Shown here: positions 1-55,045 of the stretch, in pieces
How the letters are laid out: every line of letters starts with the position of its first letter
How positions within the stretch are numbered: position 1 is the stretch's first letter
Assembly: GCA_964599645.1 (NCBI GenBank)
Contig: CAZRGQ010000001.1
Coordinates: forward strand, 11,135-75,134
Origin: an uncultured Lentisphaerales bacterium
GTDB taxonomy: Bacteria > Verrucomicrobiota > Kiritimatiellia > RFP12 > JAAYLN01
Length of the DNA: 64,000 bases
Direction: 5' to 3'
Program-made: the position numbers and the translations under genes
Notes under the pieces: model-generated
Databases searched by the model: none
What the model saw: the letters and a program-made list of their open reading frames with translations, nothing else
What the model was told of the DNA's origin: nothing

Positions 1-318
1 CGGCTGAATCTGATAGAAGCCGAGATTGATCCAGCGGTGACTGCCGTTGCGGGCCGGATAGAGGAAGGGCAGCAGGGTGCCGATAAAGCCGCCGATGGCA
101 ATCGGCAGCAGCAGCCAAAGGCTTTTCAGGTTACGGTAGTCGAAGCGTGAGACGATAAAGGCCACCACGATGCTCAACGCCAATGCCAGCCCTTGTCGGA
201 TGACAAAGGCGTTGGGCTTCGCAGGATCGACGGTCGAGCTGGCACTATAGACCAGGATCAGGCCGATAGTGAGCAGGAACAGTAGTGCGATCAGAAAGAT
301 CGAGACAGCTCGCCGCAC
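1..318 (-). CDS. ftsW: FtsW (SEDS family peptidoglycan glycosyltransferase/lipid II flippase), N-terminal part; the gene runs off the window start
   Basis: Minus-strand translation reads ...VRRAVSIFLIALLFLLTIGLILVYSASS...FVIRQGLALALSIVVAFIVSRFDYRNLKSLWLLLPIAIGG..., typical FtsW/RodA N-terminal TM helices. A GTG at 318 sits just downstream of the LysM gene stop (334-336). The position in the dcw cluster fits ftsW. Confidence 0.55.
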   Translation of the reverse strand, partial: MRRAVSIFLIALLFLLTIGLILVYSASSTVDPAKPNAFVIRQGLALALSIVVAFIVSRFDYRNLKSLWLLLPIAIGGFIGTLLPFLYPARNGSHRWINLGFYQIQP

Positions 319-333
319 CGCAACTCCGGAACG

Positions 334-1401
334 TTAGGGGTTCTGGGGTATCTTGAGCACGGTGCCGGGAATCAGCTCTGAGCCGGTGAGGTTGTTGGCC
401 GCCTTGATGGCCGCCGTGCTGACCGACCAGCGGATCGCGACGGAGTAGAGGTCCTCGCCAGCCACTACCGTATGGTTCTGGAAGGTGGCGGGAGCGGTGG
501 TGCCGGCATCAAGCTGCGGTATCGGCGGCGGCGGTGGCGCCGTCGTGGTATCGCTGATTGTGGTGCCGCTTGTCATGTGGACTGCAGCGTCAGGTGCGAC
601 GACCGGCACAGTTGGCGGCGCTATCGGCGCTACCGGCGGCGCAACCGGCGCTGCAGGCGGAGTCACAACCGTTGGCAGGGCGACGGGGGCGGTCGGTGCT
701 TTCACCTCTGTCTCGGCGGGGCGGGGACGCACGGGTGCCGTGGTTTCAGCGGCCTGCGGTTTGACGACCGGCTTTTCAGGGGCAACTGCTGCCTTGCCAC
801 CGGGGATTACCAGCTTCTGGCCGGCGAGAATCTTGTCGCTCGTCAGGTTGTTGGCCTTCTTCAGTGCGGCGGTTTTGATACCGTGGCGCTGTGCAATCAC
901 CGAGAGGCTGTCACCCGATTTAACCGTATAGAGGTTGGCGCCGGCCGGTGGGGTTACGGCCTTGCTCGTGGTGCTCACGGATGGGCGCACCGGTTTGGCG
1001 ATGTCGACCTTGCCGGGAAGCTGAATGGTCTGCCCTACGACGATACGGTTGGGGTTGAGGCCGGGGTTGACTGCGGCCACATCCTGCCAGCGCAGGCCGT
1101 AACGCGCGGCAATCGAAGAGAGCATATCGCCCTCCTTGACGGTGTAGGCGGTGGTAAGTTGAGGCCGTTCGGCTGCCGTCGGGATGGCAATGGGAGTATC
1201 AACCTTGAAGGTGGTGGCAGGTGGGATGACAATATGGGGCTCCAGCGCCACCGGCTCAGGCTCAAGAGCACCGGGCATGGGACGCAGGCGCATATCTTCG
1301 GCCTCACTGCCGCTATAGATGGTGGAACAGCCCTGCAGCAACGCAATGCCCACAACAGCACCGAGCGCGCTCAGGTAGTGACAGGGGTTGATGGTCTTCA
1401 T
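334..1401 (-). CDS. LysM-domain lipoprotein (three LysM repeats separated by Pro-rich linkers), putative peptidoglycan-binding protein
   Basis: N-terminus MKTINPCHYLSALGAVVGIALLQGCST is a lipoprotein signal with lipobox. Three LysM-like units: YTVKEGDMLSSIAARYG...QTIQLP, YTVKSGDSLSVIAQRHG...QKLVIP and HTVVAGEDLYSVAIRW...TVLKIP. Confidence 0.75.
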   Translation of the reverse strand: MKTINPCHYLSALGAVVGIALLQGCSTIYSGSEAEDMRLRPMPGALEPEPVALEPHIVIPPATTFKVDTPIAIPTAAERPQLTTAYTVKEGDMLSSIAARYGLRWQDVAAVNPGLNPNRIVVGQTIQLPGKVDIAKPVRPSVSTTSKAVTPPAGANLYTVKSGDSLSVIAQRHGIKTAALKKANNLTSDKILAGQKLVIPGGKAAVAPEKPVVKPQAAETTAPVRPRPAETEVKAPTAPVALPTVVTPPAAPVAPPVAPIAPPTVPVVAPDAAVHMTSGTTISDTTTAPPPPPIPQLDAGTTAPATFQNHTVVAGEDLYSVAIRWSVSTAAIKAANNLTGSELIPGTVLKIPQNP

Positions 1402-1413
1402 TTTTTCTCTTCC

Positions 1414-2820
1414 TTATTGTAGCATCGCAGCCGATGCTGTGCCCAAAGCATGCACCGAGTGCGCAAAACACTCGCCGCGCTCTTCGAAACTGACAAACTG
1501 GTCGAAACTGGCACACCCCGGCGCGAGGAGAACCGCCTCCCCGGCCTGTGCTCCAGCCGCTGCCGCTCTGACAGCCGCAGGCAGGTCGCCACAGATGACG
1601 GTTGCCACGACCGCTGACCAGACAGCAGCTAGAGAGTGCGCCGATTCGCCTATAAGATAAACTTTTTTGACGCGCTTTGCCAGCAACTCTTTTACAGCCT
1701 CCAAATTTGACTCTTTGAGGCGTCCGCCGGCGATGAGGTGAACCGGGTGGGGAGTCATCTCGACGGCTGCCGCAAGAGCTGTAAGCGAGGTCGCTTTGGA
1801 GTTGTCGATAAAGCTGACCCCCTGATGGCAGGCCACCAGCTCCATGCGATGCGGCAGTGGCTTGAAGCTGCGCAGGCCGGCCTCAATCTGCTGCGGGGTC
1901 AGGCCGCAGGTGTGGAGCGCCGCGCAGATGGCGGCGGCAGCCGGCCCGAGGATGGCGTTGTCGAACCAGGTGTTGGTGCAATTGTAAATGAGCTTGTGGC
2001 CGGTGGTGGAGTTGCTGATGTGTCCTGGAGTGTAGTGCCAGTCGCTGCCGACACCACCGAAGGTGGCGACGGTGACGGCGGAGGGGATATACCTGCCGGC
2101 CTCCGGCAGCGAGGCCGGCAGCAGGGCCAGATCACCCGCCTGCTGCTGTGCAAAGAGTCGGTATTTGGCGGCGGCATAGGCCACCATCGTCCGGTGACGG
2201 TCGAGGTGGTCGGGCTGGATATTGAGCAGCACCGCGATTTCGGGATGGAAAGCCGCAGCCTGCTCCAGTTGGAAGGAGCTGGCTTCCACCACCGCCCAGG
2301 GGCAGGTGGCGTGGTCGAGGACGGCCGCCGAGAGCGGCAAGCCGTAGTTGCCGGCGGCAATCGCCGGCTGGCCGGCCAACGTCAGGGTGTCGGCTGCCAG
2401 ACGCACGGCCGACGACTTGCCCTTGCTGCCGCTGACAGCGAGGATGCGCCCCGGCCAGAGATAGAAGCCGAGATCGAGCTCGGCCACGAGGGGGATGGCG
2501 CGCGCCCGGCAGGCCTGCAGCCAGGGATGGTCAACGGCAAAGGCGGGGCTGACGATCGCCAGCGTATAGGGCGTGGCGGGGAGTGTCGTAGCCGCAGCGT
2601 GGAGTTCGACGCCGAGTGCATCGAGTTGCGGCCGCAGTGGCGCCAGGCGCTCTTCAGAAGCCGCATCGAGCAGGGTCACGCGGTTGCCGCGCAGGCGTAG
2701 GAGACGGGCTGCTGCCAGACCGCTGATGCCGGCTCCGAGGATGGCAACGTGCTGCCCGCGGAAGGCGTTGTGAGGCGGGTTGGCGCTGTTCTGCCGTGGT
2801 TGCTCCGGAGAGTGGCTCAC
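1414..2820 (-). CDS. murD: UDP-N-acetylmuramoylalanine--D-glutamate ligase
   Basis: N-terminal Rossmann motif VAILGAGISGLAAARLL; ATP-binding region AVSGSKGKSS; DHLDRH and FIDNSKATS motifs characteristic of MurD. ATGA overlap with the murF stop. Confidence 0.8.
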   Translation of the reverse strand: MSHSPEQPRQNSANPPHNAFRGQHVAILGAGISGLAAARLLRLRGNRVTLLDAASEERLAPLRPQLDALGVELHAAATTLPATPYTLAIVSPAFAVDHPWLQACRARAIPLVAELDLGFYLWPGRILAVSGSKGKSSAVRLAADTLTLAGQPAIAAGNYGLPLSAAVLDHATCPWAVVEASSFQLEQAAAFHPEIAVLLNIQPDHLDRHRTMVAYAAAKYRLFAQQQAGDLALLPASLPEAGRYIPSAVTVATFGGVGSDWHYTPGHISNSTTGHKLIYNCTNTWFDNAILGPAAAAICAALHTCGLTPQQIEAGLRSFKPLPHRMELVACHQGVSFIDNSKATSLTALAAAVEMTPHPVHLIAGGRLKESNLEAVKELLAKRVKKVYLIGESAHSLAAVWSAVVATVICGDLPAAVRAAAAGAQAGEAVLLAPGCASFDQFVSFEERGECFAHSVHALGTASAAMLQ

Positions 2821-4235
2821 TTGGCAGCCTCCTGCCAGAGGGCCAGGGCGCGTTCGAGGGCGACCCCACGCGAGGCTTTGAGGAGCAGGGCATCGCCGGG
2901 CTGCAGCAGGTCGCTGAGGAGGTGGCCGGCCGTGGTGGTGTCGGCTGTGGTATGAATGGCACCGGCAAAGCCGTGTTCGCGGGCGGCGTCTGCGATCCAG
3001 GCACCGCCCTGGCCCACCCCCACCAGCACGGCGCAGCCGCTCGCGGCTACCGTGCAGCCGATGTCATGGTGAAAGCCGGCGGCTGCCGCGCCCAACTCGC
3101 GCATCTCGCCCAGCAGCAAGACCTGACGTCCGCTGGTGGCGGCGGCGAAGCTCCTGATCGCCGCCGCCATTGAGAGCGGACTGGCATTGTAGGCGTCGTT
3201 GATGACGGTAACGCCGTGGAGCTGCTGCTGCTCCCAGCGCATCGCCATGCCCGGCAGACGCGGCAACGTGGCGGCAATGGCCTCCCAGGTGACACCGCAC
3301 TGACGCGCTGCTGCAAGGGCCAGCAAGGCGTTGAGGATCACATGGCGTCCCGGACGTTGAAGAGTGAGTTGCAGGGGTTGCGCCAAATCGCGGGCATGGA
3401 GTGTAAAGGAGCCGCAGCAGTCGTCGCTCGCGCTGATGTAGTAGTCGGCATCGGTTTGAGTGAGTGAGACGGTGACAAGGCGCGCTGCTGTGGCCTGGCG
3501 CAATAGTTGGAGCCAGGGAGAGTCGGCATCGACTACGGCAAAGCCGCTGGCGGGCGTGGCACGCAACAGTGTCGCCTTCTCAGCGGCAATGGCCGCCACC
3601 GAGGGGAAGTGTTCGAGATGCACGGCACCGATGGTTCCCATGATGGCGGCAGCCGGGGCCAGAATCCGGCAGAGCGGGGCCAGTTCGCCCGGGTGGCTCA
3701 TGCCGAGTTCAAAGACGCCATACCGGGTGCCGGGCACCATCTGGAGCAGGCTGAGCGGCAGACCGACGTCGGTGTTGTAGTTGCCGCAGGTGGCGGCGGT
3801 GGTCGCCTTGGTGGCGAGCAGGGCAGCGGTCCAGCTTGTGAGGGTGCTCTTGCCGACACTGCCGCTGACGCCGATCATGAAGGGGTTGAGCTGCTGGCTC
3901 CAGGCGTGGCCCAGCCGCCCGAGCGCTGTCAGTGTCTGGTCGACACGCAGCAGCGGCAGTCCGGCGCACTCTGCTGGCGCTTGCCAGTCCGCTGCGACCA
4001 TGGCGGCGGCGGCACCGTTGGCAAAGGCGGCCGCCACGTAGTCGTGGCCGTCGACGGTCGCGCCGGGCAGGGCGACGTAGAGGTTGCCGGGGCGGATGGC
4101 ACGGCTATCGTGGACTACGCCGCGCAGCAGGGCGGGCGGGGCCGGCGTCCAATGGCCCTGCGACCAGGCGGCCACCGCAGCGGGGTCGAAGGGACGGTCG
4201 GCCGTCAGGGGCGTTGTGCGGCGTTCAGGCTCCAC
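2817..4235 (-). CDS. murF: UDP-N-acetylmuramoyl-tripeptide--D-alanyl-D-alanine ligase
   Basis: Mur ligase P-loop IGVSGSVGKST and the usual MurF domain order. The ORF extends to 4310, but the likely start is the GTG at 4235, giving a short overlap with the murE stop at 4225. Confidence 0.8.
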   Translation of the reverse strand: MEPERRTTPLTADRPFDPAAVAAWSQGHWTPAPPALLRGVVHDSRAIRPGNLYVALPGATVDGHDYVAAAFANGAAAAMVAADWQAPAECAGLPLLRVDQTLTALGRLGHAWSQQLNPFMIGVSGSVGKSTLTSWTAALLATKATTAATCGNYNTDVGLPLSLLQMVPGTRYGVFELGMSHPGELAPLCRILAPAAAIMGTIGAVHLEHFPSVAAIAAEKATLLRATPASGFAVVDADSPWLQLLRQATAARLVTVSLTQTDADYYISASDDCCGSFTLHARDLAQPLQLTLQRPGRHVILNALLALAAARQCGVTWEAIAATLPRLPGMAMRWEQQQLHGVTVINDAYNASPLSMAAAIRSFAAATSGRQVLLLGEMRELGAAAAGFHHDIGCTVAASGCAVLVGVGQGGAWIADAAREHGFAGAIHTTADTTTAGHLLSDLLQPGDALLLKASRGVALERALALWQEAAK

Positions 4236-5715
4236 GGGTGGCAAGCCTCCGCACCTCTTCACGGTCGTCAAAAGGTGTCTTGTGGTATTGGACCTCCTGA
4301 TAGGTCTCATGCCCCTTGCCGGCGATCAGGAGGGTGTCGCCCTGCGTGACGAGCTGCAGGCCGCGGGCGATGGCGCTGCGGCGCTCAGGTTCGGTCTGCA
4401 GGGTTTTGCCGGGGTGGGCCTGAAGATCGCAGCCGGCTAGGATATCGGCGATGATGGCGGCGGGATCTTCGGTGCGCGGGTTGTCGGAGGTGATGATGAT
4501 GTCGTCGGCCAGTTCAAGGGCCGCGCTGCCCATCAGCGGACGTTTGGTGCGGTCGCGGTCACCACCGCAACCGAAGACGAGCACGAGGCGTCCGGGAGTA
4601 ATCTCGCGCAGTGTGGCGAGGACGTTGCGCAGGGCGTCGTCGGTATGGGCGTAGTCGACAAAGATGGTGGCCGGATGGGGGGTGGCGACCCGTTCGAGCC
4701 GGCCCCAACGCGACTTAATCTGCGGCAGGGTGGCGATGATCAGCTCGAACGGCAGCTCGCAAGCGAGCGCCAGAGCGCTGGCACAGAGGAGGTTGGCGAC
4801 ATTGTAACGTCCCAGCAGGGCGCTTTTGATGGGGGCTGTGCCGCAGGGGGTGTTGAGCGTAAAACGTGTGCCGGCGCCACTGAGTTTGAGGTCGGCAGCG
4901 CTGATATCGGCCGCCGCCGTCAGGCCGTAAGTGACCACCTTAAGCGGCAGTTGGGCGAGCTGTTTGATGAGGCGCTGGCCGTAGGGATCGTCGGCATTGA
5001 TAATGGCAGGGTGTCCGGGGTTGAGAGCCGCCAGTTGCTCAAAGAGGCGCAGCTTGGTGGCGAAGTAGTTTTCAAGATCGTGGTGGTAGTCGAGGTGGTC
5101 GCGGGTCAGGTTGGTGAAGGCGGCGGCGGCAAAGCGGGTGGCCCCGGTGCGGTGTTGAACGAGCGCATGTGACGAGACCTCCATTACAGCGGCCTGGCAA
5201 TGGTCGTCGCGCATGGCGGCGAGGAGCCGCTGCAGCGTAATGGCGTCGGGAGTTGTCCGGCTGGCGGCGATCACCCGTTCGCCGTAGGCATACTCGACGG
5301 TTGAGAGGAGCCCCGTCTTGCGTCCGGCCGCCTGCAACAGGTCGCGCACAACTCCGGCGACGGTCGTCTTGCCGTTGGTACCGGTTACGCCGACCAGCTC
5401 CAGGCGGTGTGACGGCTGGCGGTAGAAGTTGGCTGCCATCTGTGCCACGGCTTGTCGCGCCTCTGCCACTTGAATCCAAGCCAGCTTGGAGGGGGGCGGC
5501 GGCTGGTCGCTGGCGATGGCCACCACGCCGCGGCTGCGGGCCTGCTCGATGTAGCGATAACCGTTATCGTGTGAGCCATGAATGGCCACAAAGAGATCGC
5601 CGCGCCGTGCCAGACGTGAATCGGAGCAGATGCCACTCAACTCCAGATTGGCGGCGGCGGTCGACTTGACGACCTCGACCCCGCTTAACATCTCTGACAG
5701 CTTAATGGCACTCAC
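4225..5715 (-). CDS. murE: UDP-N-acetylmuramoyl-L-alanyl-D-glutamate--2,6-diaminopimelate ligase
   Basis: GVTGTNGKTT P-loop and TSDNPRTEDP (DNPR motif specific to MurE). 4-nt overlap with ftsI. Confidence 0.85.
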   Translation of the reverse strand: MSAIKLSEMLSGVEVVKSTAAANLELSGICSDSRLARRGDLFVAIHGSHDNGYRYIEQARSRGVVAIASDQPPPPSKLAWIQVAEARQAVAQMAANFYRQPSHRLELVGVTGTNGKTTVAGVVRDLLQAAGRKTGLLSTVEYAYGERVIAASRTTPDAITLQRLLAAMRDDHCQAAVMEVSSHALVQHRTGATRFAAAAFTNLTRDHLDYHHDLENYFATKLRLFEQLAALNPGHPAIINADDPYGQRLIKQLAQLPLKVVTYGLTAAADISAADLKLSGAGTRFTLNTPCGTAPIKSALLGRYNVANLLCASALALACELPFELIIATLPQIKSRWGRLERVATPHPATIFVDYAHTDDALRNVLATLREITPGRLVLVFGCGGDRDRTKRPLMGSAALELADDIIITSDNPRTEDPAAIIADILAGCDLQAHPGKTLQTEPERRSAIARGLQLVTQGDTLLIAGKGHETYQEVQYHKTPFDDREEVRRLATRGA

Positions 5716-7442
5716 CAGACGCCTCCACTGCTGTTGTGCGCCATGTTTTCGTAGCGCGCTTCGCTCCCGCTTGGCACCTCCAGATATTGTGCCACGACGG
5801 TAGCGATATGGGCAAAGACTGGCGCCGAAACGACGCCACCGGTATGAAATTTCTGCGGTTTGTCGACCACCACGATGATGCCGAACTCCGGCTGCTCCGC
5901 CGGCACAAAGCCGACAAACGAGGCCCAGTAGTCGGTCTGTGAGTAGCCGCCGCCACCCGGCTGCAGCATCTGGGCGGTGCCGGTCTTGCCGGCCACAGTG
6001 TAGCCTGCAACGGCAGCACGCCGCCCGGTGCCACCTGTGGTAACGCCCTGCAACATACGGCGCATCTCGGCGGCCACTTCAGGACGGATGGGACGGGCGA
6101 TTACCGTCGGGCTGTTTTCCAAGATCACCTCGCCCTGCTGCGTTACCACCTTGCGCACCACATAGGGACGCATTACGCGCCCGCCGTTGGCCAGCGTGCA
6201 GTAGGCGTTCAACATCTGGAGCGGCGTCACCGAGACGCCCTGGCCGATGGCGATTCGTGTCGGTCTTACCGGCTCCCAGCTTGATGATGGAGGCAGCAGG
6301 CCGCGCTCTTCACCCGGCAGATCGATGCCGAGGATATCACCGAAGCCGAAGGCGCGCAGATAGCACTCCATGCGGCGATTGCCGAGCTTCAGGCCGATAA
6401 GCGCTGTGCCGATGTTGCTCGATTTGGCAATAATGGTGCGGACATCGACGCGGCCGTAGACCTTGTCACGCAGTGTGTGGCCGCCGTAGTACCACGATCC
6501 CTGACCGACATCGAAGGTCGAGTCGGGAGTGATCAGCCCCTCATTGAGGGCAGCGGCCACGATAATCGATTTCATCGTGGAGCCGGGGTCATAGATATGG
6601 GCGATGTTTGAGTTTTGCCACTGCTGCGGTATCGTCTGCCGATAGTTGGCCGGCTCGAAGTCCGGGTAGGAGGCCATGGCCAGAATCTCGCCGCTGTTGA
6701 CCAGTTGCACAATCGCACGAGCGGCACAGCCACCGCTGCTCTCCACAGCGGCAGCCAGAGCCTCCTCCACCACCTGCTGCATGTTGCGATCGAGCGTAAG
6801 ATAGACGTGGGCGCCATCGATCGCCTCGGCGGTACTGGTACGCCGGTCGCGGATTTCCCGGCCACGACCATCACGTGTGCCTTCAATCATGCCGTCGGTG
6901 CCTTGCAGATAGCGGTTGTAGTGTTGCTCGATGCCGGCCGAACCCACCTGTTCGCTATTGACAAAGCCGATCACATGCGACATGTTGCGCCCCAGCGGAT
7001 AGTGACGCTCCAGCACCCGCTCGATGCCGACGCCGCTGTAGCAGGATTTGTTGGTCACCAGCGTCAGCACCCGCTCATCATGCACCACCCCTTGTATCGC
7101 GTAACGCGACCGTTTGGCACGCAGATCGTAGAGCACAGCATCGATATCACGTCCGGTAAAGTCGGCAACCGCCTCGGCGATGGCCACTACGTCGTGCTTG
7201 GGATCAACGCTCTTGTAGTCGAGAAAGAGGCGACGCCCCGGATCAGTGGTGGCCACCGGCCGACCACCCCGGTCGTAGATAAAGCCGCGTGCCGCGGTGA
7301 GGGGACGGTGCCAGGAGGTAATGTTGCTGACCTTGTGGTCGCCCAGATGCAGGAGCGTCGCACGTGCCAGCAGCACCAGATACCAGCCTGCCAGCAGCAG
7401 CGGTACTAGCCAAAAGCGGAAAAGCTGTCCTCTATTGGGCAT
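5712..7442 (-). CDS. ftsI: penicillin-binding protein 2 / FtsI-type peptidoglycan D,D-transpeptidase
   Basis: N-terminal TM helix, transpeptidase motifs STMK (SxxK), SSN and KTGT; position after ftsL in the dcw cluster. Confidence 0.85.
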   Translation of the reverse strand: MPNRGQLFRFWLVPLLLAGWYLVLLARATLLHLGDHKVSNITSWHRPLTAARGFIYDRGGRPVATTDPGRRLFLDYKSVDPKHDVVAIAEAVADFTGRDIDAVLYDLRAKRSRYAIQGVVHDERVLTLVTNKSCYSGVGIERVLERHYPLGRNMSHVIGFVNSEQVGSAGIEQHYNRYLQGTDGMIEGTRDGRGREIRDRRTSTAEAIDGAHVYLTLDRNMQQVVEEALAAAVESSGGCAARAIVQLVNSGEILAMASYPDFEPANYRQTIPQQWQNSNIAHIYDPGSTMKSIIVAAALNEGLITPDSTFDVGQGSWYYGGHTLRDKVYGRVDVRTIIAKSSNIGTALIGLKLGNRRMECYLRAFGFGDILGIDLPGEERGLLPPSSSWEPVRPTRIAIGQGVSVTPLQMLNAYCTLANGGRVMRPYVVRKVVTQQGEVILENSPTVIARPIRPEVAAEMRRMLQGVTTGGTGRRAAVAGYTVAGKTGTAQMLQPGGGGYSQTDYWASFVGFVPAEQPEFGIIVVVDKPQKFHTGGVVSAPVFAHIATVVAQYLEVPSGSEARYENMAHNSSGGVW

Positions 7443-7466
7443 AAATCTGCCTCTCCGCCTCCCCGG

Positions 7467-7826
7467 TTAACGTCTGCTGGCCAGTTGTGATGTCGTGCGA
7501 TAGCCACCGTCGCCGCTCCCCTGACGCAGGTGTACCACCTGCTCACCACGCTGCAGCGCCATGTTAAGGCCATGCCGGAGCAGGGCGCACTCAATCTGCT
7601 CTGCGGTCGTGACACGCGCCCACTCGCTCTGCTCTGTGCGCAGCCTGTAGCTGTGGTCGTCGTTCGCCTCCTCCAGCTTCTTGATCTGTTCGCCAAGTGA
7701 GGCCGACATCGTGCCGAAGAGCACGTGGCAGATGCCGAAAAAGGCGAGTACGATCAACACCCCTACCAGTTTGACCGGCAAGGCGCGGGCTTCTGCCCGT
7801 CTTCTGCGATTACGTCTCTTTACCAT
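7467..7826 (-). CDS. ftsL: cell division protein FtsL-like (bitopic, coiled coil)
   Basis: 119 aa with a basic N-terminus, a single TM helix (LVGVLIVLAFFGICHVLF) and a coiled-coil-like region (KKLEEANDD...). Sits between rsmH and ftsI. Confidence 0.5.
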   Translation of the reverse strand: MVKRRNRRRRAEARALPVKLVGVLIVLAFFGICHVLFGTMSASLGEQIKKLEEANDDHSYRLRTEQSEWARVTTAEQIECALLRHGLNMALQRGEQVVHLRQGSGDGGYRTTSQLASRR

Positions 7827-8788
7827 GTGCTCTCCCCTCGCCCGTAGTAAGGAGTCTCCTCCTCCTGAAACCGTTGCACCGCACGCAGACGGGCTGAGCG
7901 GGCGCGCGGATTAAAACTGCACTCTTCAAGTGTGGGACGCAATGAGCGGCGGAAGACCCACGCCATACGTGGCTCCAGCCCGTCCCACTGGGAACCGCCC
8001 TGATACAGTGAGGCATAACGCCCCACATGGCGGCCCATACAACGCTTGACGATCCGGTCGCTCAAGCTTTCAAAAGTCAAAACGGCCAGGCGTCCGCCGG
8101 GTGCGAGACGCTCCATGGCGGCATCGAGGGCGTGACGCAACGCCTCCAGCTCACCGTTCACCTCCATGCGCAGCGCCTGAAAGATGCGTGTTGCCGGGTG
8201 GTGGCGCAGCCCCTGGCGGCGTCCGATAGTCGCCTGCACGAGGTTGGCCAACTGGCCGGTGGTGGTAATCGCCTCATCTTCACGCGCCCGCGCAATGGCC
8301 GTGGCGATGCGGCGCGCCTGCGGCTCCTCGCCCAGTCGGCGGAAGAGTTCGATCAACTCATCAACGCTATACCGGTTGATGATCGTGGCCGCCGTCAGCT
8401 CCTGCCGCTGATCCATGCGCATGTCGAGCGGACCATCCTGCATGAAGCTGAAGCCGCGCTCTGCGCTGTCGAGCTGAAAGGAGGAGACGCCGGTATCGAT
8501 CACAACGCCATCGAGCGCGTGGAAGCCATGCGCATCGGCCAGTTGCCCCAGATCGGCATGGTTGCCCTGCGCGTAAGTAACGCTGCCGGGAAACTGTGAT
8601 AGATACTTGGTCGCCCGTGTGATCGCCTCAGCGTCACGATCAATGCCGAGCAGGCGCACATCGGGTCCGGCGCGCCGCATGATCTCGGCGGCATGGCCAC
8701 CGCCACCGAGGGTAGCATCGAGATACGTGCCTCCCGGCTGTACGTCGAGACTGTCGATCGTCTCCTGTAGCATGACTGATAAATGCAC
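7820..8788 (-). CDS. rsmH: 16S rRNA (cytosine1402-N4)-methyltransferase
   Basis: MHLSVMLQETIDSLDVQPGGTYLDATLGGGGHAAEIM is the canonical RsmH/MraW N-terminus with SAM-binding motif. Follows mraZ. Confidence 0.85.
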   Translation of the reverse strand: MHLSVMLQETIDSLDVQPGGTYLDATLGGGGHAAEIMRRAGPDVRLLGIDRDAEAITRATKYLSQFPGSVTYAQGNHADLGQLADAHGFHALDGVVIDTGVSSFQLDSAERGFSFMQDGPLDMRMDQRQELTAATIINRYSVDELIELFRRLGEEPQARRIATAIARAREDEAITTTGQLANLVQATIGRRQGLRHHPATRIFQALRMEVNGELEALRHALDAAMERLAPGGRLAVLTFESLSDRIVKRCMGRHVGRYASLYQGGSQWDGLEPRMAWVFRRSLRPTLEECSFNPRARSARLRAVQRFQEEETPYYGRGESTW

Positions 8789-8796
8789 AATTACAC

Positions 8797-9222
8797 CTAA
8801 AAGTTGAGTTCTTCTGCGGCCCCGATGATATTGTCGAAGGCCTCCTGCTCGGACGGCACATTTTCAGCCGCCCATACCTGAACACGCGTCAAGGCGCCGA
8901 TCATGATGATGTCGCGTTTGACACCGATACGGTCGAGCAGATTGTCACGAATACGAATGCGTCCCTGATTGTCGACATCCAGCGTCTCTGTGATGGAGCC
9001 GGCCCAGGTCAGAAAATTGGCGGCACGCACATTGGTGAGGGCAGCCGACCGCAGCGGCTCCATACGAGCCTCAATCTCATGTTCCAGGAAGAGGTTGAGA
9101 CAGTTGAGGCGTGCCAGATCGAGCATAACGACTACCTGCTGCGGGTTGCCCATACGGTTACGCAGGGTAGCCGGGATAGTGACGCGCCGCTTCGGATCAA
9201 GACGGTAGGGGTAGCGCCCCAT
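8797..9222 (-). CDS. mraZ: transcriptional regulator MraZ
   Basis: Two SpoVT/AbrB-like halves (GRYPYRLDPKRRVTIPATLR and DNQGRIRIRDNLLDRIGVKRDIIMIGA). The track ORF extends to 9312, but the MraZ-like start is the M at 9222. First gene of the dcw cluster. Confidence 0.75.
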   Translation of the reverse strand: MGRYPYRLDPKRRVTIPATLRNRMGNPQQVVVMLDLARLNCLNLFLEHEIEARMEPLRSAALTNVRAANFLTWAGSITETLDVDNQGRIRIRDNLLDRIGVKRDIIMIGALTRVQVWAAENVPSEQEAFDNIIGAAEELNF

Positions 9223-9400
9223 CAGGGTGCCCACCACTGCCGGTTCGATCAATCTGTCATCGTTCGTTGTCACAATCCTCACTTCTTGACTTTTCGCCCC
9301 ACCATTAAACACTTTTCCCCACCAAACGTCAACCCCCCAGTGAAATTTATTTTTTACCCCCTTTTTTGCCCTGTTAGGGACAGACCCTAATCACACCATG

Positions 9401-9497: not shown

Positions 9498-10718
9498 ATG
9501 AGCAGTATTGAGAGAGGCATTGTCCGTGATCTTGCCAAGCGCTACCTTGAGGTAGCGCAGGCGCCTTTGCAGGAGGAGCGGCGCAAACTGTGGCGTGATC
9601 TCAACAGCCTGCGGCGCACCCGTCCGCTCATCTACGTGCGAGCCTTTGCCTGGCATGAGATGCCGGAGGCCGCGACCATCTGTCAAGAGCCGCGCCTGAG
9701 GGGCTACGAGCACCACTTCCGCCATCTCCTCTGCTGGCACTCGCTCGGCGACGACTCGGTTTTCAACCCCTGGGTGGTGGTGCGGCCCCACTTTAGCCAT
9801 CACGGCTGGGGGCTTGATGTCAGGAGAAACCTGACCGGTGTGGCAGGTGGTTCGTATAAAATCGACTATCCGCTCAAAACTCTTGAGGATGCCGGAAAAA
9901 TCATAATGCCACGTCATGCGATCGATGAGGAGGCGACGGCCGACGCCTTGGCCTTTGCCGTGGAGCTGTTGGGCGATATCCTGCCGGTTACACTCGATCG
10001 CTCACCCAACTACACCATGTGGAGTGGCGATCTGGCCACGATTCTCGGTCAACTACGCGGCATTGAAAACATCATGCTCGACATGTATGACAATCCGGCC
10101 TTGCTCCAGCGTCTGATGGAGATGTTGGCGCAGGGGATTGAAGGGGTTCAGGCGGAGGCCGAGGCCGCAGGCGATTGGAGCCTCCTGGGGCACCAGAATC
10201 AGGCCATGCCTTATGCCCATGAACTGCCCGATCCGGCGCCGGATACGAACGGCGTGCAGCGTCAGCAGTTGTGGGGTTTCATGGCCGCCCAGGAGTTTAC
10301 GGCCATCTCGCCTGCGATGCATGAGGAGTTTCTACTCCGCTATCAGTTGCCCATCCTGCAGAAGTTCGGTCTCACCGCCTATGGCTGCTGTGAAGACCTG
10401 ACGCAGAAGATCGGGATGCTACGCCGGATACCGAATCTGCGCCGCATCGCTGTAGCCCCCAGCGCCAATGTGGCGGCATGTGCCGCTCAGATTGGTCACG
10501 ACTACGTTATCAGCTATCGTCCCAGCCCGGTCGATATGGTGTCGTACGACTTCAATCCCGAGCGCATGCGCCGGATACTGACCCGTGATCTCGCAAGCTG
10601 CCGTGGACAGAGCCTCGACATCACCTTGAAGGACGTTGAGACCGTCGGTGGCGACCCCAACCGCGTCCGCACCTGGGTCAGCATCACACGCGAAGTGATC
10701 AACGATCTCTTCGGTTAG
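9498..10718 (+). CDS. hypothetical protein (possibly a uroporphyrinogen-decarboxylase-like / methyltransferase-like TIM-barrel fold; assignment weak)
   Basis: 406-aa ORF with protein-like composition and own promoter/terminator signals. No motif I can assign with confidence. Confidence 0.5.
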   Translation: MSSIERGIVRDLAKRYLEVAQAPLQEERRKLWRDLNSLRRTRPLIYVRAFAWHEMPEAATICQEPRLRGYEHHFRHLLCWHSLGDDSVFNPWVVVRPHFSHHGWGLDVRRNLTGVAGGSYKIDYPLKTLEDAGKIIMPRHAIDEEATADALAFAVELLGDILPVTLDRSPNYTMWSGDLATILGQLRGIENIMLDMYDNPALLQRLMEMLAQGIEGVQAEAEAAGDWSLLGHQNQAMPYAHELPDPAPDTNGVQRQQLWGFMAAQEFTAISPAMHEEFLLRYQLPILQKFGLTAYGCCEDLTQKIGMLRRIPNLRRIAVAPSANVAACAAQIGHDYVISYRPSPVDMVSYDFNPERMRRILTRDLASCRGQSLDITLKDVETVGGDPNRVRTWVSITREVINDLFG

Positions 10719-10790: not shown

Positions 10791-11501
10791 CTAGCAACGT
10801 ACCTCGCCATCTTCCAGCAGCAGACGCCGGTCACAACGCGCTGCCACAGCCGGGTCGTGGGTCACAATCACCAGGGTGTGGTGGTGCTCTGCGACCAGTG
10901 AGAAGAGCAGGTCAAGCGTCTGACCGCCGGTCTTCAGGTCGAGGTTGCCCGTCGGCTCATCGGCCAGCACCAACCGTGGCCTGTTCATCAGGGCGCGGGC
11001 AATGGCGACGCGTTGCTGCTCGCCGCCTGAAAGCTCCAGCGGACGATGGCAGGCACGCTCGGCCAGTCCCACCTCGGCCAGCAGCTCATGTGCCCGTGCC
11101 CGCAGACCTTGCCGTGGCGCTCTGGAACAGGCCAGCGCCGGCAACATCACGTTCTCCGTCACATCCATCTCGGGCAACAGGTGGTAGGCCTGAAAGACAA
11201 AGCCGACTGCGCTGGCCCTCAGCGCCGCCCGCTTGCGTGGTACCATACCATAGAGCGAAACGCCATCAAGCCGCACGTCGCCGCTATCGGGCGTGTCGAG
11301 ACCACCCAGCAGGTGCAACAGCGTGCTCTTGCCGGCACCGCTGCGCCCCACAATCGCCACCCGTTCGCCGGCCGCTATCTCGATCGATGCATTCCGCAAC
11401 ACCTCCACCACTTTGTGCTGCATGCGATAGCTCTTGTAGAGTCTATCAGCCGCAAGTAGCGGCGGCGGGGGTTGTGGCGCTCTATTGGAGATTCTATTCA
11501 T
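10791..11501 (-). CDS. lolD: ABC transporter ATP-binding protein, LolD/MacB-type
   Basis: Walker [14 protein letters not shown], signature [15 protein letters not shown], Walker [13 protein letters not shown]. Immediately downstream of an FtsX-family permease. Confidence 0.75.
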
Positions 11502-11513
11502 CGCTGACCAGCG

Positions 11514-12743
11514 CTAACTGCGCAGCGCCTCCACCGGATCCATGCGCGCGGCCCGCCACGCCGGGATGATACTTGCCAGAGTGCAGAAGAAGATCACCGA
11601 CACCGCCACCTGTATCACCTCGCCGGGGAGTACGCGCCACGGAATCTCATCGAGGCCGTAGATGTTTTTGGGAAAGACCTCCATGCCGCAACGGGCCAGC
11701 AGATCGACCAGCCGCTGCAAATTATAGAGCACCGCATAGGCCACACCGACACCGACGAGGCTGCCGATTAGACACTGCACCCAGCCGTGGAGCACAAAGG
11801 TCCACATAATCTGCGGCCCTGAAAAACCAAGCGCCTTGAGCAGCCCGATCTCCTTCGTCTTCTGCACCGTAATCACGATCAGTGTATTGGTGACGCAGAA
11901 GATGGCGACGACGGTGATAAACATCAGCAGGATCACCATCATATTCTTCTCGACGGCCAGGGCGGCAAAGAGATCACGATCAACCTCATGCCAGGTGCGG
12001 ACGATGTAGTCGTAGCCGAGCGTACTGCGCACCGCTGCCACCGTGCGGGCAAAGAGCGGCTGATTCTCTGGGGCGGTGGTCTTGACCACGACTGTATAGG
12101 CCCCTTCATTCAACCCCATCAGATCACGTGCCAGGCCGAGCGAGGCGATGATGAAATTGCCGTCAAAGTTGCCCTGCCCCATATTAAAGATACCGGCCAC
12201 CACCACCTCTTCCGGGAAGTGCAGCTCATCGTGGGTCACAAAGCTCACCGGTGAGTGGATCAAGACCCTGTCGCCGACAGCGACCTGCAGGGCATAGGCG
12301 AGATCGACCCCGAGGAGGATGTTGTCGCCCTCAAAATCAAAGCGGCCGGCCACAATCTTCTCTGCCAGCTCAGGGTGGAGCGCTGCCGCGCGCTCAGGGT
12401 CGATGCCCACCACCAGAGGGGCCTGCACCATGCGCTCATGTTCGGCCAGCACCCGCACTTCGATACTGGGCGAGACCGCCTCCACCCCCTCAAGCTCTTT
12501 GAGTCTGCTGGCCAGCTCATCCTCGTGGTGAATCACGCCTTCGTGTGCGGTAATGGTGAGGTGCGGTTTGAAGGCGAGAATCTTCTCGCGCCACATGTCG
12601 CCGAAGCCGGTCATTACAGCCCGCACGATGATCACAATCGCCACCCCCAGCACCACGCCCAGAATTGAAATGACGGTTACTACCGAGGTGAAGCTCCGCT
12701 TCGGCTTCAGATATTTAAGGGCCAGAAAGAGTGGGAAGGACAT
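11514..12743 (-). CDS. FtsX-family ABC transporter permease (LolC/LolE-like lipoprotein-release permease)
   Basis: 409 aa with an N-terminal TM helix, a large periplasmic domain and three C-terminal TM helices (FtsX topology). Adjacent to lolD-like ATPase. Confidence 0.7.
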   Translation of the reverse strand: MSFPLFLALKYLKPKRSFTSVVTVISILGVVLGVAIVIIVRAVMTGFGDMWREKILAFKPHLTITAHEGVIHHEDELASRLKELEGVEAVSPSIEVRVLAEHERMVQAPLVVGIDPERAAALHPELAEKIVAGRFDFEGDNILLGVDLAYALQVAVGDRVLIHSPVSFVTHDELHFPEEVVVAGIFNMGQGNFDGNFIIASLGLARDLMGLNEGAYTVVVKTTAPENQPLFARTVAAVRSTLGYDYIVRTWHEVDRDLFAALAVEKNMMVILLMFITVVAIFCVTNTLIVITVQKTKEIGLLKALGFSGPQIMWTFVLHGWVQCLIGSLVGVGVAYAVLYNLQRLVDLLARCGMEVFPKNIYGLDEIPWRVLPGEVIQVAVSVIFFCTLASIIPAWRAARMDPVEALRS

Positions 12744-16093: not shown

Positions 16094-16848
16094 GTGATCA
16101 CCCACTCCTGCTCGCTCTCCCCATCGTCTCCACCTGCAGGACGCCACTTGGGACGCCGTCCGAAGAGGGCGGTGCCGAGCCGGATCAATGTCGCGCCCTC
16201 CTCGATTGCCACCTCAAAATCACTGCTCATCCCCATCGAAAGCTGCGGCAAGGCGATACCGAACTCCCGCTCCCACGCATCACGGTGTTGCCGTACCGCG
16301 GCAAAGATGGGGCGGACGGTTTCGGGATCGGGTGCAATCGGCGCCATGGTCATCAAACCGCCAAGAGTGATCTGCCGCAACGCCAACAACTCTTCCAGCA
16401 ACGGTGGCACCTCCTCCGGCTTCAGTCCGAACTTGCTGGCCTCACCTGCCGCATTGATCTCGAGCAGAATCTCGGGGCGCGCTCCCAACTCAGCGGCAAC
16501 ATGATCGATCTGCTGTGCCAGTTTGAGGGAGTCAACCGAGTGGATCACCGGGAAGAGCGCCAATGCCGGGCGCACCTTATTGCGCTGCAGGTGGCCGATC
16601 AGGTGCCACTCGGGACCGGCCACCGACGCCGGAATCTTGGCCGCAGCCTCCTGAACGCGATTCTCGCCCATGATGCCGATACCGGCCTGCCACGCCTCCT
16701 GCACCGCCTCCGGGCCGAAGTTCTTGGTGACTGCAATCAGCGTCACTTCATCAGCACGACGACCGGCACGCTGACAGGCCGACGCCATACGCCGACGAAT
16801 CTCCGCCAGGCGCGTCTCAAAATCAGATTGGGTACTCTCCATGTTCAT
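16090..16848 (-). CDS. yggS: YggS-family pyridoxal-phosphate homeostasis protein
   Basis: [31 protein letters not shown]...[15 protein letters not shown]...[15 protein letters not shown], the alanine-racemase-N fold of YggS. Confidence 0.8.
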
Positions 16849-55015: not shown

Positions 55016-55045
55016 TCTCTCTTGCCCTCTAAAAAATCGTTGCCA

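What the first reader, a model, noticed from the sequence alone, without database searches (positions are those of the whole stretch)
1..9222. Non-canonical dcw cluster: mraY absent between murF and murD, and a LysM lipoprotein inserted between murD and ftsW
The established bacterial order is mraZ-rsmH-ftsL-ftsI-murE-murF-mraY-murD-ftsW-murG. Here murF (stop 2817) overlaps murD (start 2820), so mraY cannot lie between them. After murD comes a 355-aa lipoprotein with three LysM peptidoglycan-binding repeats (334-1401). ftsW then begins only 16 nt downstream of its stop. A LysM protein embedded in the dcw operon and co-transcribed with the lipid II machinery is unusual. It could be a lineage-specific divisome or septal peptidoglycan-binding factor.
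Basis: partly seen in the sequence, partly recalled or inferred. Interest (0 to 1): 0.55.

Follow-up and report, generated by a model that had tools for sequence, protein, structure and literature searches.

The report
Kiritimatiellia dcw operon: LysM lipoprotein, mraY relocated
The cell-division gene cluster of this uncultured Kiritimatiellia bacterium really lacks mraY at its usual place and really carries a peptidoglycan-binding LysM lipoprotein gene between murD and ftsW. The LysM gene is a conserved feature of the whole group and the counterpart of the septal "NlpD" of Chlamydia, so it is a new variant of a known kind, not a new one.

Summary
The minus strand of 1-9273 reads mraZ-rsmH-ftsL-ftsI-murE-murF-murD-LysM-ftsW. 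The murF stop overlaps the murD start (GTGA). No MraY is encoded anywhere in the 64 kb.

The LysM gene is not a strain-specific insertion. Every Kiritimatiellia-type locus examined that holds both murD and ftsW carries a tri-LysM gene between them (20 distinct arrangements). All 20 Verrucomicrobiota-type loci carry a one-transmembrane-helix, two-LysM protein there. None of 21 loci from other phyla has an inserted gene.

That second architecture matches the published chlamydial "NlpD" (Cpn0902, Waddlia NlpD). This protein has LysM domains but no LytM domain, is encoded among division genes, and is recruited to the septum by peptidoglycan. The window protein is therefore best read as the lipoprotein, three-LysM variant of a PVC-wide septal peptidoglycan binder.

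Loss of mraY from murF|murD is a clade trait: it is seen in four lineages whose MurD is only 56-75% identical. A Kiritimatiellia-type MraY clade with intact catalytic motifs occurs only outside dcw clusters. This suggests relocation, but I could not link that clade to this organism.

The finding is moderately interesting.

The parts
8797..9273 (-). mraZ (first gene of the cluster)
   Evidence: PF02381, two stretches. The gene call on identical contig L002 gives 158 aa.
7820..8773 (-). rsmH/mraW
   Evidence: PF01795, 325 bits. 41% identical to E. coli RsmH.
7467..7826 (-). FtsL-like small bitopic protein (119 aa)
   Evidence: Assigned by position between rsmH and ftsI and by one hydrophobic segment followed by a heptad-like region. 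No HMM hit, so the assignment is inferred.
5712..7442 (-). ftsI (class B PBP)
   Evidence: PF03717 plus PF00905, 244 bits.
4225..5715 (-). murE (meso-DAP type)
   Evidence: NF001126, 544 bits.
2817..4235 (-). murF
   Evidence: TIGR01143, 353 bits. Called as 472 aa on identical contigs.
2817..2820 (-). murF stop / murD start overlap (GTGA), the site where mraY normally lies
   Evidence: Sequence read. L022 and L024 have an ATGA overlap here and L025 has a 3-nt gap.
1414..2820 (-). murD
   Evidence: TIGR01087, 342 bits over residues 24-457.
334..1401 (-). Tri-LysM lipoprotein (355 aa); 12-nt spacer with AAGGAAGAG ribosome-binding site after murD
   Evidence: PF01476, three stretches. The AlphaFold2 model shows three confident beta-alpha-alpha-beta modules and disordered linkers. 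The family has more than 500 homologs.
1327..1401 (-). Signal peptide and lipobox (..ALLQG-C25, Ser at +2)
   Evidence: A helix at residues 7-22 in the model. G24 is invariant and C25 at least 90% conserved in the 46-sequence alignment. A QGC lipobox is seen in nearly all homologs.
1015..1155 (-). LysM domain 1 (aa 83-129)
   Evidence: Position-specific conservation (YT..GDT.S.IA..Y.LRWQDV.AVNPG).
805..936 (-). LysM domain 2 (aa 156-199)
346..483 (-). LysM domain 3 (aa 307-352)
1..318 (-). ftsW, first 106 codons (GTG start 15 nt after the LysM stop); runs off the window
   Evidence: TIGR02614, E 8e-17. The full 375-aa gene is present on identical contigs L002/L003.

Best explanation
The window opens with a Kiritimatiellia dcw operon on the minus strand.

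(a) The LysM gene. The gene between murD and ftsW encodes an exported, lipid-anchored protein. It consists only of three LysM peptidoglycan-binding modules joined by disordered Pro/Ala-rich linkers, with no catalytic domain. By position it is the counterpart of a LysM-only protein that PVC bacteria encode at the same murD|ftsW junction. In Verrucomicrobiota that protein has one transmembrane helix and two LysM domains, which is the published architecture of chlamydial 'NlpD' (Cpn0902).

Likely mechanism:
- Shown: the gene is packed into the operon, with 12-nt and 15-nt spacers and no terminator.
- Inferred: it is made together with MurD and FtsW.
- Inferred from the LysM family and from chlamydial NlpD: after export and lipidation, its LysM modules bind the glycan backbone of newly made septal peptidoglycan. 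This concentrates the protein where FtsW-FtsI are active.
- Inferred: there it acts as a non-enzymatic peptidoglycan-sensing scaffold or regulator of septal wall synthesis or remodelling.

(b) The missing mraY. mraY was excised from between murF and murD in the ancestor of a deep, high-GC Kiritimatiellia clade, and murF and murD became translationally coupled. Because murD, murE, murF, ftsI and ftsW remain intact across that clade, lipid I must still be made. mraY therefore most probably persists elsewhere as a stand-alone gene.
For: Anatomy of the LysM protein:
- Pfam and NCBIfam hits.
- The AlphaFold2 model shows three LysM folds with pLDDT above 90 and everything else disordered.
- Spacers and ribosome-binding site.
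- No terminator-like site between murD, the LysM gene and ftsW.

Conservation of the family:
- 534 homologs of 300-380 aa, several named Kiritimatiellae or Kiritimatiellia by NCBI.
- A QGC lipobox in nearly all of them.
- Each of the three LysM domains has its own conserved signature.

Position of the gene:
- A gap-by-gap survey found 3 LysM domains between murD and ftsW in every Kiritimatiellia-type locus. This includes Pontiella-like L013, and L026, where murD-LysM-ftsW stands alone behind a kinase gene.
- It found 2 LysM domains in all 20 Verrucomicrobiota-type loci.
- It found none, with gaps of 61 nt or less, in 21 loci of other phyla.
- One Verrucomicrobiota-type locus is named Terrimicrobiaceae.
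- The Verrucomicrobiota proteins have a cytoplasmic tail, one transmembrane helix and 2 LysM domains.

Literature:
- Cpn0902 'NlpD' has no LytM domain. It has a transmembrane helix and two C-terminal LysM domains (PMC4083426).
- Waddlia NlpD is embedded in a wall/division gene cluster, binds sacculi through LysM, and is septal in a peptidoglycan-synthesis-dependent way (PMC4083446).
- V. spinosum VSP_RS19445, which by locus-tag order lies between murD and ftsW, scores essential in TraDIS (PMC12283558, supplementary file 6).

mraY:
- It is absent from the window.
- The same murE-murF-murD-LysM-ftsW order occurs in L022/L023, L024 and L025. Their MurD is 56-61% identical to the window's and 67-75% identical to each other.
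- Other Kiritimatiellia keep murF-mraY-murD.
- A MraY clade (P0391-P0394) is 80-88% identical within itself and about 60% identical to other Kiritimatiellia MraY. It carries the Kiritimatiellia-type C-terminal insertion and intact DD / MGDTGS / HHH motifs. It occurs only in non-dcw contexts, in five different arrangements on GC 64-69% contigs.
Against: - No experiment exists for any Kiritimatiellia member, so septal localisation is by analogy only.
- Homology to the Verrucomicrobiota and chlamydial proteins beyond the generic LysM fold could not be shown. The domain-level best-hit test was inconclusive, and no chlamydial sequence was available to me.
- The exact chlamydial gene order (murD-nlpD-ftsW) is from my memory. 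Only 'embedded in a wall/division cluster' is in the text I could read.
- The membrane anchor differs (lipobox versus transmembrane helix), so the compartment (inner versus outer membrane) and any cytoplasmic contacts may differ.
- The identity of VSP_RS19445 as a LysM protein is unverified.
- The stand-alone MraY clade is not linked to this organism. None of its contigs come from the sequencing runs that hold the window sequence, and no flanking genes are shared.
- No MraY 65-100% identical to that clade was found in the window's own samples.
Confidence: 0.62

Rival explanations
1. The LysM lipoprotein is a general envelope tether, in the manner of Lpp, Pal or OmpA. It would staple the outer membrane to the sacculus all around the cell, and its dcw location would only ensure co-expression with wall synthesis.
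For: - It is a lipoprotein with Ser at +2, which means outer-membrane sorting by the E. coli rule. lolD and lolCE lie in the same window.
- Its long disordered Pro/Ala linkers could span the periplasm.
- It has no catalytic domain and no recognisable protein-interaction domain.
Against: - The counterparts at the same junction in Verrucomicrobiota and Chlamydiae are inner-membrane bitopic proteins (PMC4083426).
- The chlamydial counterpart is specifically septal (PMC4083446).
- The gene stays glued to murD and ftsW even when the rest of the cluster is scattered (L026).
Confidence: 0.2
2. The protein is an enzyme or an enzyme activator. It could be an E. coli-type NlpD/DipM amidase activator, or a DD-carboxypeptidase as reported in vitro for C. 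pneumoniae Cpn0902.
For: - Weak partial NCBIfam hits to NlpD, DipM, ActS and MltD.
- Cpn0902 released terminal D-Ala from lipid II in vitro (PMC4083426).
- Waddlia NlpD changed muropeptide cross-linking when expressed in E. coli (PMC4083446).
Against: - All those NCBIfam hits cover only the LysM parts and score far below the cut-offs, for example NlpD at 30 bits against a cut-off of 311.
- There is no LytM/M23 hit.
- Outside the three LysM modules the model is disordered and the sequence is poorly conserved Pro/Ala-rich linker. That leaves no room for an active site.
Confidence: 0.1
3. mraY has truly been lost from this clade. Lipid I would be made by a recruited paralog such as a WecA/WbpL-type PF00953 enzyme, or the peptidoglycan pathway would be decaying.
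For: - No MraY in 64 kb.
- I could not find this organism's mraY in any collection.
Against: - murD, murE, murF, ftsI and ftsW are full-length with strong family scores. They are conserved across lineages whose MurD is only 56-75% identical, which is not compatible with a decaying pathway.
- A bona fide MraY clade of the right phylum, GC content and divergence exists outside dcw clusters.
- Published profiling reports dcw genes as highly conserved in Kiritimatiellota (PMC12283558).
Confidence: 0.07
4. The arrangement is an assembly or binning artefact, or a recent strain-specific rearrangement or insertion.
For: The source is a metagenome-derived contig.
Against: - Identical sequence lies on 13 contigs, and the 10 shown come from 10 different sequencing runs.
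- The window's MurD is on record from NCBI, ENA and Logan on 11 contigs of up to 121 kb.
- The same order is found in three further lineages.
Confidence: 0.01

Closest known systems
Chlamydial 'NlpD' (C. pneumoniae Cpn0902, C. trachomatis CT759, Waddlia NlpD)
   Same: Both are LysM-only envelope proteins without a LytM/M23 domain, and both are membrane-anchored at the N-terminus. Both are encoded inside the wall/division gene cluster; between murD and ftsW in C. trachomatis and C. pneumoniae as I recall it. The chlamydial protein binds peptidoglycan through LysM and is recruited to the septum by ongoing wall synthesis (PMC4083446, PMC4083426).
   Different: The chlamydial protein has a transmembrane helix and two C-terminal LysM domains. 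The window protein has a lipobox and three LysM domains. Sequence relatedness beyond the LysM fold was not demonstrated here. The reported DD-carboxypeptidase activity has no plausible structural basis in the Kiritimatiellia protein.
Verrucomicrobiota protein encoded between murD and ftsW (264-292 aa; loci L067-L093, L105, L110). V. spinosum VSP_RS19445 is probably one.
   Same: It occupies the same junction in the operon. It is LysM-only with Pro/Ala-rich linkers and is present in every locus of the group examined.
   Different: It has a conserved, charged N-terminal cytoplasmic tail of about 45 aa plus one transmembrane helix and two LysM domains. Its operon continues with murG-murC-ddl-ftsQ?-ftsA. 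It is uncharacterised in the literature I could search.
E. coli NlpD, Caulobacter DipM, ActS (LysM plus LytM divisome factors)
   Same: NlpD is an outer-membrane lipoprotein with a LysM domain. For DipM, the LysM domains drive septal localisation.
   Different: These proteins act through a C-terminal (degenerate) LytM domain that activates amidases. The window protein has none. They are also not encoded in the dcw cluster.
FtsN (proteobacterial divisome trigger)
   Same: The logic is similar: a membrane-anchored protein with a long flexible linker and a C-terminal domain (SPOR) that recognises septal peptidoglycan, giving positive feedback on FtsWI. The Verrucomicrobiota and chlamydial versions share its bitopic topology.
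   Different: The binding domain differs (SPOR versus LysM). The Kiritimatiellia version has no cytoplasmic tail or transmembrane helix. There is no sequence relationship. This is a functional analogy only.
Canonical dcw cluster (mraZ-rsmH-ftsL-ftsI-murE-murF-mraY-murD-ftsW-murG-murC-murB-ddl-ftsQAZ)
   Same: The order mraZ to murF and murD to ftsW is colinear and tightly packed.
   Different: mraY is missing from murF|murD, which is clade-specific. A LysM gene is inserted at murD|ftsW, which is typical of PVC bacteria. The cluster ends at ftsW, which holds for all Kiritimatiellia loci seen. On identical contigs the next gene is a GFO_IDH_MocA oxidoreductase.

Membership tests
LysM domain proteins (PF01476) | One or more ~44-aa beta-alpha-alpha-beta modules that match the LysM profile | tested here: met
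   Three stretches, E 1.6e-42, 143.6 bits against a cut-off of 20.9. The model shows three beta-alpha-alpha-beta modules with pLDDT above 90. The best PDB matches are LysM repeats of LytE, Ecp6 and T. thermophilus P60.
Bacterial lipoproteins | Signal peptide ending in a lipobox with an invariant Cys | tested here: met
   MKTINPCHYLSALGAVVGIALLQG-C25. Gln at -2 is atypical. G24 is invariant and C25 at least 90% conserved across 46 homologs, and QGC is seen in nearly all of 121 sequences. Lipidation itself was not tested.
E. coli-type NlpD / EnvC / DipM (LytM factors) | C-terminal LytM (peptidase M23-like) domain that contacts the amidase | tested here: not met
   No M23 hit in Pfam. The NlpD equivalog scores 30 bits against a cut-off of 311, and DipM scores 71 against 740, in both cases over LysM parts only. 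No folded region exists outside the LysM modules.
PVC dcw-encoded LysM protein (chlamydial 'NlpD' type) | LysM-only, N-terminally membrane-anchored, no LytM domain | tested here: met
   for the window protein. PMC4083426 for Cpn0902. The anchor type differs (lipobox versus transmembrane helix).
PVC dcw-encoded LysM protein (chlamydial 'NlpD' type) | Gene located inside the dcw cluster at the murD|ftsW junction | tested here: met
   Met for the window, for 20 distinct Kiritimatiellia-type arrangements and for 20 Verrucomicrobiota-type loci, against 0 of 21 loci from other phyla. For Chlamydiae, 'embedded within a cluster of cell wall and division genes' comes from PMC4083446; the exact junction is from my memory of the CT756-CT762 order.
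PVC dcw-encoded LysM protein (chlamydial 'NlpD' type) | Common descent (sequence relatedness beyond the generic LysM fold) | tested here: inconclusive
   Domain-by-domain best hits between Verrucomicrobiota and Kiritimatiellia proteins all go to the most canonical LysM, so there is no orthology signal. No chlamydial sequence was available.
PVC dcw-encoded LysM protein (chlamydial 'NlpD' type) | Septal localisation dependent on peptidoglycan synthesis; binding of sacculi | not testable with these tools
   Needs microscopy and pull-down experiments. Shown only for Waddlia NlpD (PMC4083446).
FtsN-like divisome triggers | Cytoplasmic tail plus transmembrane helix plus C-terminal SPOR domain | tested here: not met
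   The window protein has no transmembrane helix beyond the cleaved signal peptide and no SPOR hit. This is an analogy only.
Canonical dcw cluster | mraY between murF and murD | tested here: not met
   GTGA overlap of murF and murD. No MraY in the window.
Canonical dcw cluster | murG-murC-murB-ddl-ftsQAZ downstream of ftsW | tested here: not met
   On identical contigs, ftsW is followed by a GFO_IDH_MocA oxidoreductase, a 751-aa protein, a HAD hydrolase and IspH. The same truncation occurs in all Kiritimatiellia-type loci.
MraY (PF00953) relocated copy, clade P0391-P0394 | MraY catalytic motifs (DD, MGDTGS, HHH) and full length | tested here: met
   All are 387 aa and carry PF00953 plus PF10555.
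MraY (PF00953) relocated copy, clade P0391-P0394 | Belongs to the same organisms as the mraY-less dcw clusters | tested here: inconclusive
   Phylum, GC content (64-69%) and divergence pattern fit. No sample is shared with the window, and no flanking genes are shared.

The most novel reading that the evidence does not exclude
The gene at the murD|ftsW junction is a single ancient PVC invention. It would be an essential, LysM-based sensor of septal peptidoglycan that activates or stabilises FtsW-FtsI, the PVC analogue of FtsN. It would have been inherited by Chlamydiota, Verrucomicrobiota and Kiritimatiellota. In Kiritimatiellia it would have been remodelled into a tri-LysM lipoprotein that has lost the cytoplasmic link. 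If so, it is the only divisome component shared by FtsZ-less Chlamydiae and FtsZ-containing relatives that is absent from model bacteria. In parallel, one Kiritimatiellia clade would have uncoupled mraY from the operon entirely, a rare break of one of the most conserved gene adjacencies in bacteria.
Probability: 0.25. Interest if true: 0.7.

Novelty: new variant of a known kind. Interest (0 to 1): 0.42.

Why it matters
The PVC bacteria are the main natural experiment in alternative cell division. Chlamydiae and most Planctomycetes divide without FtsZ, whereas Verrucomicrobiota and Kiritimatiellota keep it.

A LysM-only protein fixed at the murD|ftsW junction in three PVC phyla would be a lineage-defining divisome part that E. 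coli/Bacillus-based gene lists do not include. The recent PVC dcw surveys I could read do not mention it.

It is directly testable. Cultured Pontiella species and the now genetically tractable V. spinosum carry it, and the V. spinosum gene at that position already scores essential in TraDIS.

The mraY finding matters less. It shows that even the murF-mraY-murD adjacency can be broken cleanly and stably in a free-living wall-building lineage. This is a caution for synteny-based annotation and for pathway-completeness calls on MAGs.

Tried and rejected
1. Finding this organism's mraY.
- A profile of Kiritimatiellales MraY returned only Pontiella-like sequences.
- A search of 50%-identity representatives gave P0312, which led to the stand-alone clade.
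None of the MraY look-ups hit a sequencing run that carries the window.
- P0397, a candidate by composition, turned out to follow murF and is therefore canonical.
- tblastx of the stand-alone-mraY loci against the window and the related dcw loci found no shared genes.
- The JGI scan added no new members of that clade.

2. Orthology of individual LysM domains between Kiritimatiellia and Verrucomicrobiota. The result was uninformative.

3. Textual confirmation of the chlamydial murD-nlpD-ftsW order. I searched for CT758-760 and Cpn0901-0903 and found nothing. Pilhofer et al. 2008 is not held.

4. A MraY-MurD fusion. Rejected: MurD is 468 aa and TIGR01087 covers residues 24-457. A 722-aa 'MraY-MurD' representative (P0289) is a frameshift read-through from another lineage.

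5. An internal promoter for the LysM gene. One sigma-70-like match lies at 1445-1416, but the count for the region is at chance level.

6. A suspected relationship between the 406-aa ORF at 9498-10718 and URO-D-like genes near lolCD in L012 and L028. Rejected by BLASTP.

Full report
**What is in the sequence**

Nine tightly packed ORFs lie on the minus strand of 1-9273. HMM searches identify them as follows.

| Gene | Coordinates | Evidence |
|---|---|---|
| mraZ | 8797-9273 | PF02381 |
| rsmH | 7820-8773 | PF01795 |
| FtsL-like | 7467-7826 | bitopic protein, no HMM hit |
| ftsI | 5712-7442 | PF03717 + PF00905 |
| murE | 4225-5715 | NF001126 |
| murF | 2817-4235 | TIGR01143, 353 bits |
| murD | 1414-2820 | TIGR01087, 342 bits |
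| LysM protein, 355 aa | 334-1401 | three PF01476 stretches, E 1.6e-42 |
| ftsW, first 106 codons | 1-318 | TIGR02614 |

The junctions are tight:
- The murF stop and the murD start share GTGA.
- murD and the LysM gene are 12 nt apart, with an AAGGAAGAG ribosome-binding site.
- The LysM stop and the GTG start of ftsW are 15 nt apart.

No terminator-like site lies between murD, the LysM gene and ftsW. tblastn with the E. coli dcw proteins finds no MraY, MurG, MurC, Ddl, FtsQ, FtsA or FtsZ anywhere in the 64 kb.

**Not an artefact, and who it is**

The exact LysM protein is encoded on 13 public contigs. The 10 shown come from 10 different sequencing runs and all have the same neighbours. The window's MurD is on record from NCBI, ENA and Logan on 11 contigs of up to 121 kb.

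Those contigs extend past the window edge. ftsW (375 aa) is followed by a GFO_IDH_MocA oxidoreductase, a 751-aa protein, a HAD hydrolase and IspH. The cluster therefore ends at ftsW.

The nearest species-representative genomes reach only about 41% MurD identity. They are Kiritimatiellales or 'Verrucomicrobiota' MAGs. LysM homologs that carry a source name are called Kiritimatiellae or Kiritimatiellia bacterium. The organism is a deep, high-GC, poorly sampled Kiritimatiellia lineage.

**The LysM gene is conserved**

A search of the large protein collection returned 534 homologs. Nearly all are 300-380 aa.
- They share a signal peptide ending in a QGC lipobox.
- They share three LysM modules, each with its own conserved signature, separated by poorly conserved Pro/Ala-rich linkers.
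- AlphaFold2 on a 46-sequence alignment gives three confident beta-alpha-alpha-beta modules (residues 83-129, 156-199 and 307-352, pLDDT above 90). It also gives a signal-peptide helix and disorder everywhere else. There is no room for a catalytic domain, and no M23/LytM profile matches.

Genomic context was read for many relatives. I then measured the murD-to-ftsW gap in every fetched locus and scanned it with a LysM HMM. The result is all-or-none.

| Group | Loci | Gap | LysM domains in the gap |
|---|---|---|---|
| Kiritimatiellia-type | 20 distinct arrangements, counting the window | 970-1890 nt | 3 in every one |
| Verrucomicrobiota-type | 20 | 815-981 nt | 2 in every one |
| Other phyla | 21 | 61 nt or less | 0 |

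- The Kiritimatiellia-type group includes L013, whose MraY is 78-94% identical to Pontiella-named MraY.
- The 576-aa ORF checked in the L062 group is a VQGC lipoprotein with three LysM domains.
- One Verrucomicrobiota-type locus has an FtsW that NCBI names Terrimicrobiaceae. These operons continue with murG-murC-ddl-ftsA.
- In L026 the rest of the cluster is gone: a Ser/Thr kinase gene precedes murD. The murD-LysM-ftsW triplet is nevertheless kept.

The Verrucomicrobiota proteins (264-292 aa) have a conserved charged cytoplasmic tail, one transmembrane helix and two LysM domains.

**Link to what is known**

The Verrucomicrobiota architecture matches what has been published for the chlamydial protein annotated 'NlpD'.
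[quoted passage not shown] It binds sacculi through its LysM domain. It was the first septal wall-binding protein found in Chlamydiae, and its septal localisation depends on prior wall synthesis (PMC4083446).
- From my own knowledge, the C. trachomatis order is CT756 murF, CT757 mraY, CT758 murD, CT759 nlpD, CT760 ftsW, CT761 murG. I could not confirm this in the held literature.
- A PVC survey found 'NlpD' only in Chlamydiae and Verrucomicrobia (PMC5147048).
- In the V. spinosum TraDIS data, VSP_RS19445 scores essential (PMC12283558, supplementary file 6). By locus-tag order it lies between murD (RS36300) and ftsW (RS36295). Its identity as the LysM protein is an inference.
- None of the papers I could search mentions a LysM gene in Kiritimatiellota or Verrucomicrobiota dcw clusters.

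**Most likely function**

What is shown:
- The protein is exported and has a conserved lipobox.
- It consists only of LysM modules on flexible linkers.
- Its gene is locked between murD and ftsW across a whole phylum and beyond.

What is inferred:
- The gene is co-transcribed and co-translated with the lipid II and septal synthase genes.
- The LysM modules bind the glycan backbone of nascent septal peptidoglycan.
- This concentrates the protein at the site of FtsW-FtsI activity, where it works as a non-enzymatic scaffold or sensor, in the way shown for chlamydial NlpD.

The bitopic Verrucomicrobiota and chlamydial forms resemble FtsN in layout (tail, transmembrane helix, linker, peptidoglycan-binding domain). 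The Kiritimatiellia form has replaced the helix with a lipid anchor. It therefore cannot contact cytoplasmic partners, and it may sit in either membrane.

Rivals, from most to least likely:
- A general outer-membrane-to-wall tether. This is plausible from the lipoprotein nature and the long linkers. The inner-membrane, septal counterparts argue against it.
- An enzyme or amidase activator. There is no domain that could carry such an activity.
- An insertion artefact. This is refuted.

**The missing mraY**

Three further lineages have the same murE-murF-murD-LysM-ftsW order with overlapping or abutting murF and murD: L022/L023, L024 and L025. Their MurD is 56-61% identical to the window's and 67-75% identical to each other. 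The deletion is therefore old and stable.

More distant Kiritimatiellia (MurD 41-46% identical) keep murF-mraY-murD. Intact, well-scoring MurD, MurE, MurF, FtsI and FtsW across this clade imply that lipid I is still made.

Hunting for the gene went through three steps:
- A representative-level HMMER search led to a frameshifted JGI sequence (P0312) that carries the Kiritimatiellia-specific C-terminal insertion.
- A search with its N-terminal part uncovered a tight MraY clade, P0391-P0394. It is 80-88% identical within itself and about 60% identical to all other Kiritimatiellia MraY. All members are 387 aa, with DD, MGDTGS and HHH motifs intact.
- Every context recovered for this clade is outside a dcw cluster. 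Five arrangements were seen: proB-proA-mraY-HIT; integrase/prophage-like genes-mraY-(methyltransferase)-ParA; TPR protein-mraY-MatE; chorismate synthase-mraY-aldehyde oxidase; and mraY-HIT on a short contig. The contigs have 64-69% GC.

By contrast, every other Kiritimatiellia MraY lineage I could place follows murF. The divergence pattern fits: MurD at 42-46% identity to canonical Kiritimatiellia corresponds to MraY at about 60%.

The parsimonious reading is that this stand-alone clade is the relocated mraY of the mraY-less dcw group. I could not prove it. No sample is shared with the window organism and no flanking genes are shared. I put relocation at about 0.9 against true loss. I put identity of the stand-alone clade with this group at about 0.6.

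**Verdict**

The LysM gene is not an oddity of this genome. It is the Kiritimatiellia variant (lipoprotein, three LysM domains) of a junction gene shared with Verrucomicrobiota and, by architecture and published context, with Chlamydiae, where it has been studied under the misleading name NlpD. That makes it a new variant of a known kind. Its phylum-wide fixation at murD|ftsW, not noted in the literature I could search, is the most useful result. The mraY gap is a clean, clade-level rearrangement of modest interest.

Noticed in passing
window 1-318 and beyond (L002 11084-14476; L003 4810-13703): The dcw cluster stops at ftsW. The next genes are a GFO_IDH_MocA/GH109-like oxidoreductase, a 751-aa protein without a Pfam hit, a HAD hydrolase (opposite strand) and IspH. 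The same truncation after ftsW is seen in all Kiritimatiellia-type loci, while Verrucomicrobiota-type loci continue with murG-murC-ddl-ftsA.
   Followed up: partly
window 51689-58192 (-): A complete type I restriction-modification system: HsdS 51689-52861, HsdM 53381-55015, HsdR 55046-58192. It lies in a stretch of 47-52% GC within a 60% GC window, which suggests a horizontally acquired island.
   Followed up: partly
window 10791-12743 (-): A LolD-like ABC ATPase and a LolC/E-like permease (FtsX plus MacB_PCD domains) lie a short distance upstream of the dcw cluster. L012 also has a LolC/E-like and LolD-like pair after its murD. This is relevant to sorting of the LysM lipoprotein.
   Followed up: no
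window 1416-1445 (-): A single sigma-70-like match (TGGGCA-18-TACAAT with an extended TG) lies inside the 3' end of murD, just upstream of the LysM gene. The count for the region equals the shuffled expectation, so it may be chance.
   Followed up: no
window 4236-4310 (-): The murF ORF extends 25 codons upstream of the start chosen by gene callers, to an ATG at 4310. This would overlap murE by 86 nt. The shorter call (start 4235, 11-nt overlap) matches the homologs.
   Followed up: partly
L026 7518-8540: In one relative, a Ser/Thr protein kinase gene (Pkinase) directly precedes the isolated murD-LysM-ftsW triplet. This may hint at phosphorylation-based control of the module.
   Followed up: no
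L041 1-9892 (same contig as): One stand-alone mraY sits immediately after a phage-type integrase and a block of mobile-element genes (HicAB, Bro-N, Mrr, DNA methylase, SocA). Either mraY is an integration hotspot boundary here, or it was moved by such an element.
   Followed up: no
L038 5771-15286 (-), also L039 and L040: A giant ORF of 6719 aa (fn3/PhoD_N-like faint hits) lies next to the proBA-mraY-HIT locus.
   Followed up: no
proteins P0391-P0467, P0242, L013 and L014 MraY: Most Kiritimatiellia-type MraY in the searches carry an insertion of about 25 aa between the HHH motif and the last transmembrane helix (consensus HHHFEIISKE..A.GRSPDSAENSV.IRFW). Among the 150 representatives, only P0242 shows this type of insertion. 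L012's MraY lacks it.
   Followed up: partly
representatives P0255, P0269, P0277, P0281, P0290, P0316, P0323: A set of MraY representatives of 475-508 aa match the profile in two pieces. This implies an insertion of about 100-130 aa in the middle of the protein. Their taxonomic origin is unknown.
   Followed up: no
L060 8613-11146 and L055 7123-8247: There are further breaks of the cluster in other Kiritimatiellia. In L060, murF-mraY is followed by no murD within 10 kb. In L055, mraY has no murF within 7 kb upstream. The position of mraY seems generally labile in this class.
   Followed up: partly
window 14035-15336 (-) and 16090-16911 (-): A CapA/PGA_cap-family protein and a YggS-type PLP-binding protein (Ala_racemase_N domain) lie near the dcw cluster. 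Neither is a bona fide wall-precursor enzyme by these hits.
   Followed up: no
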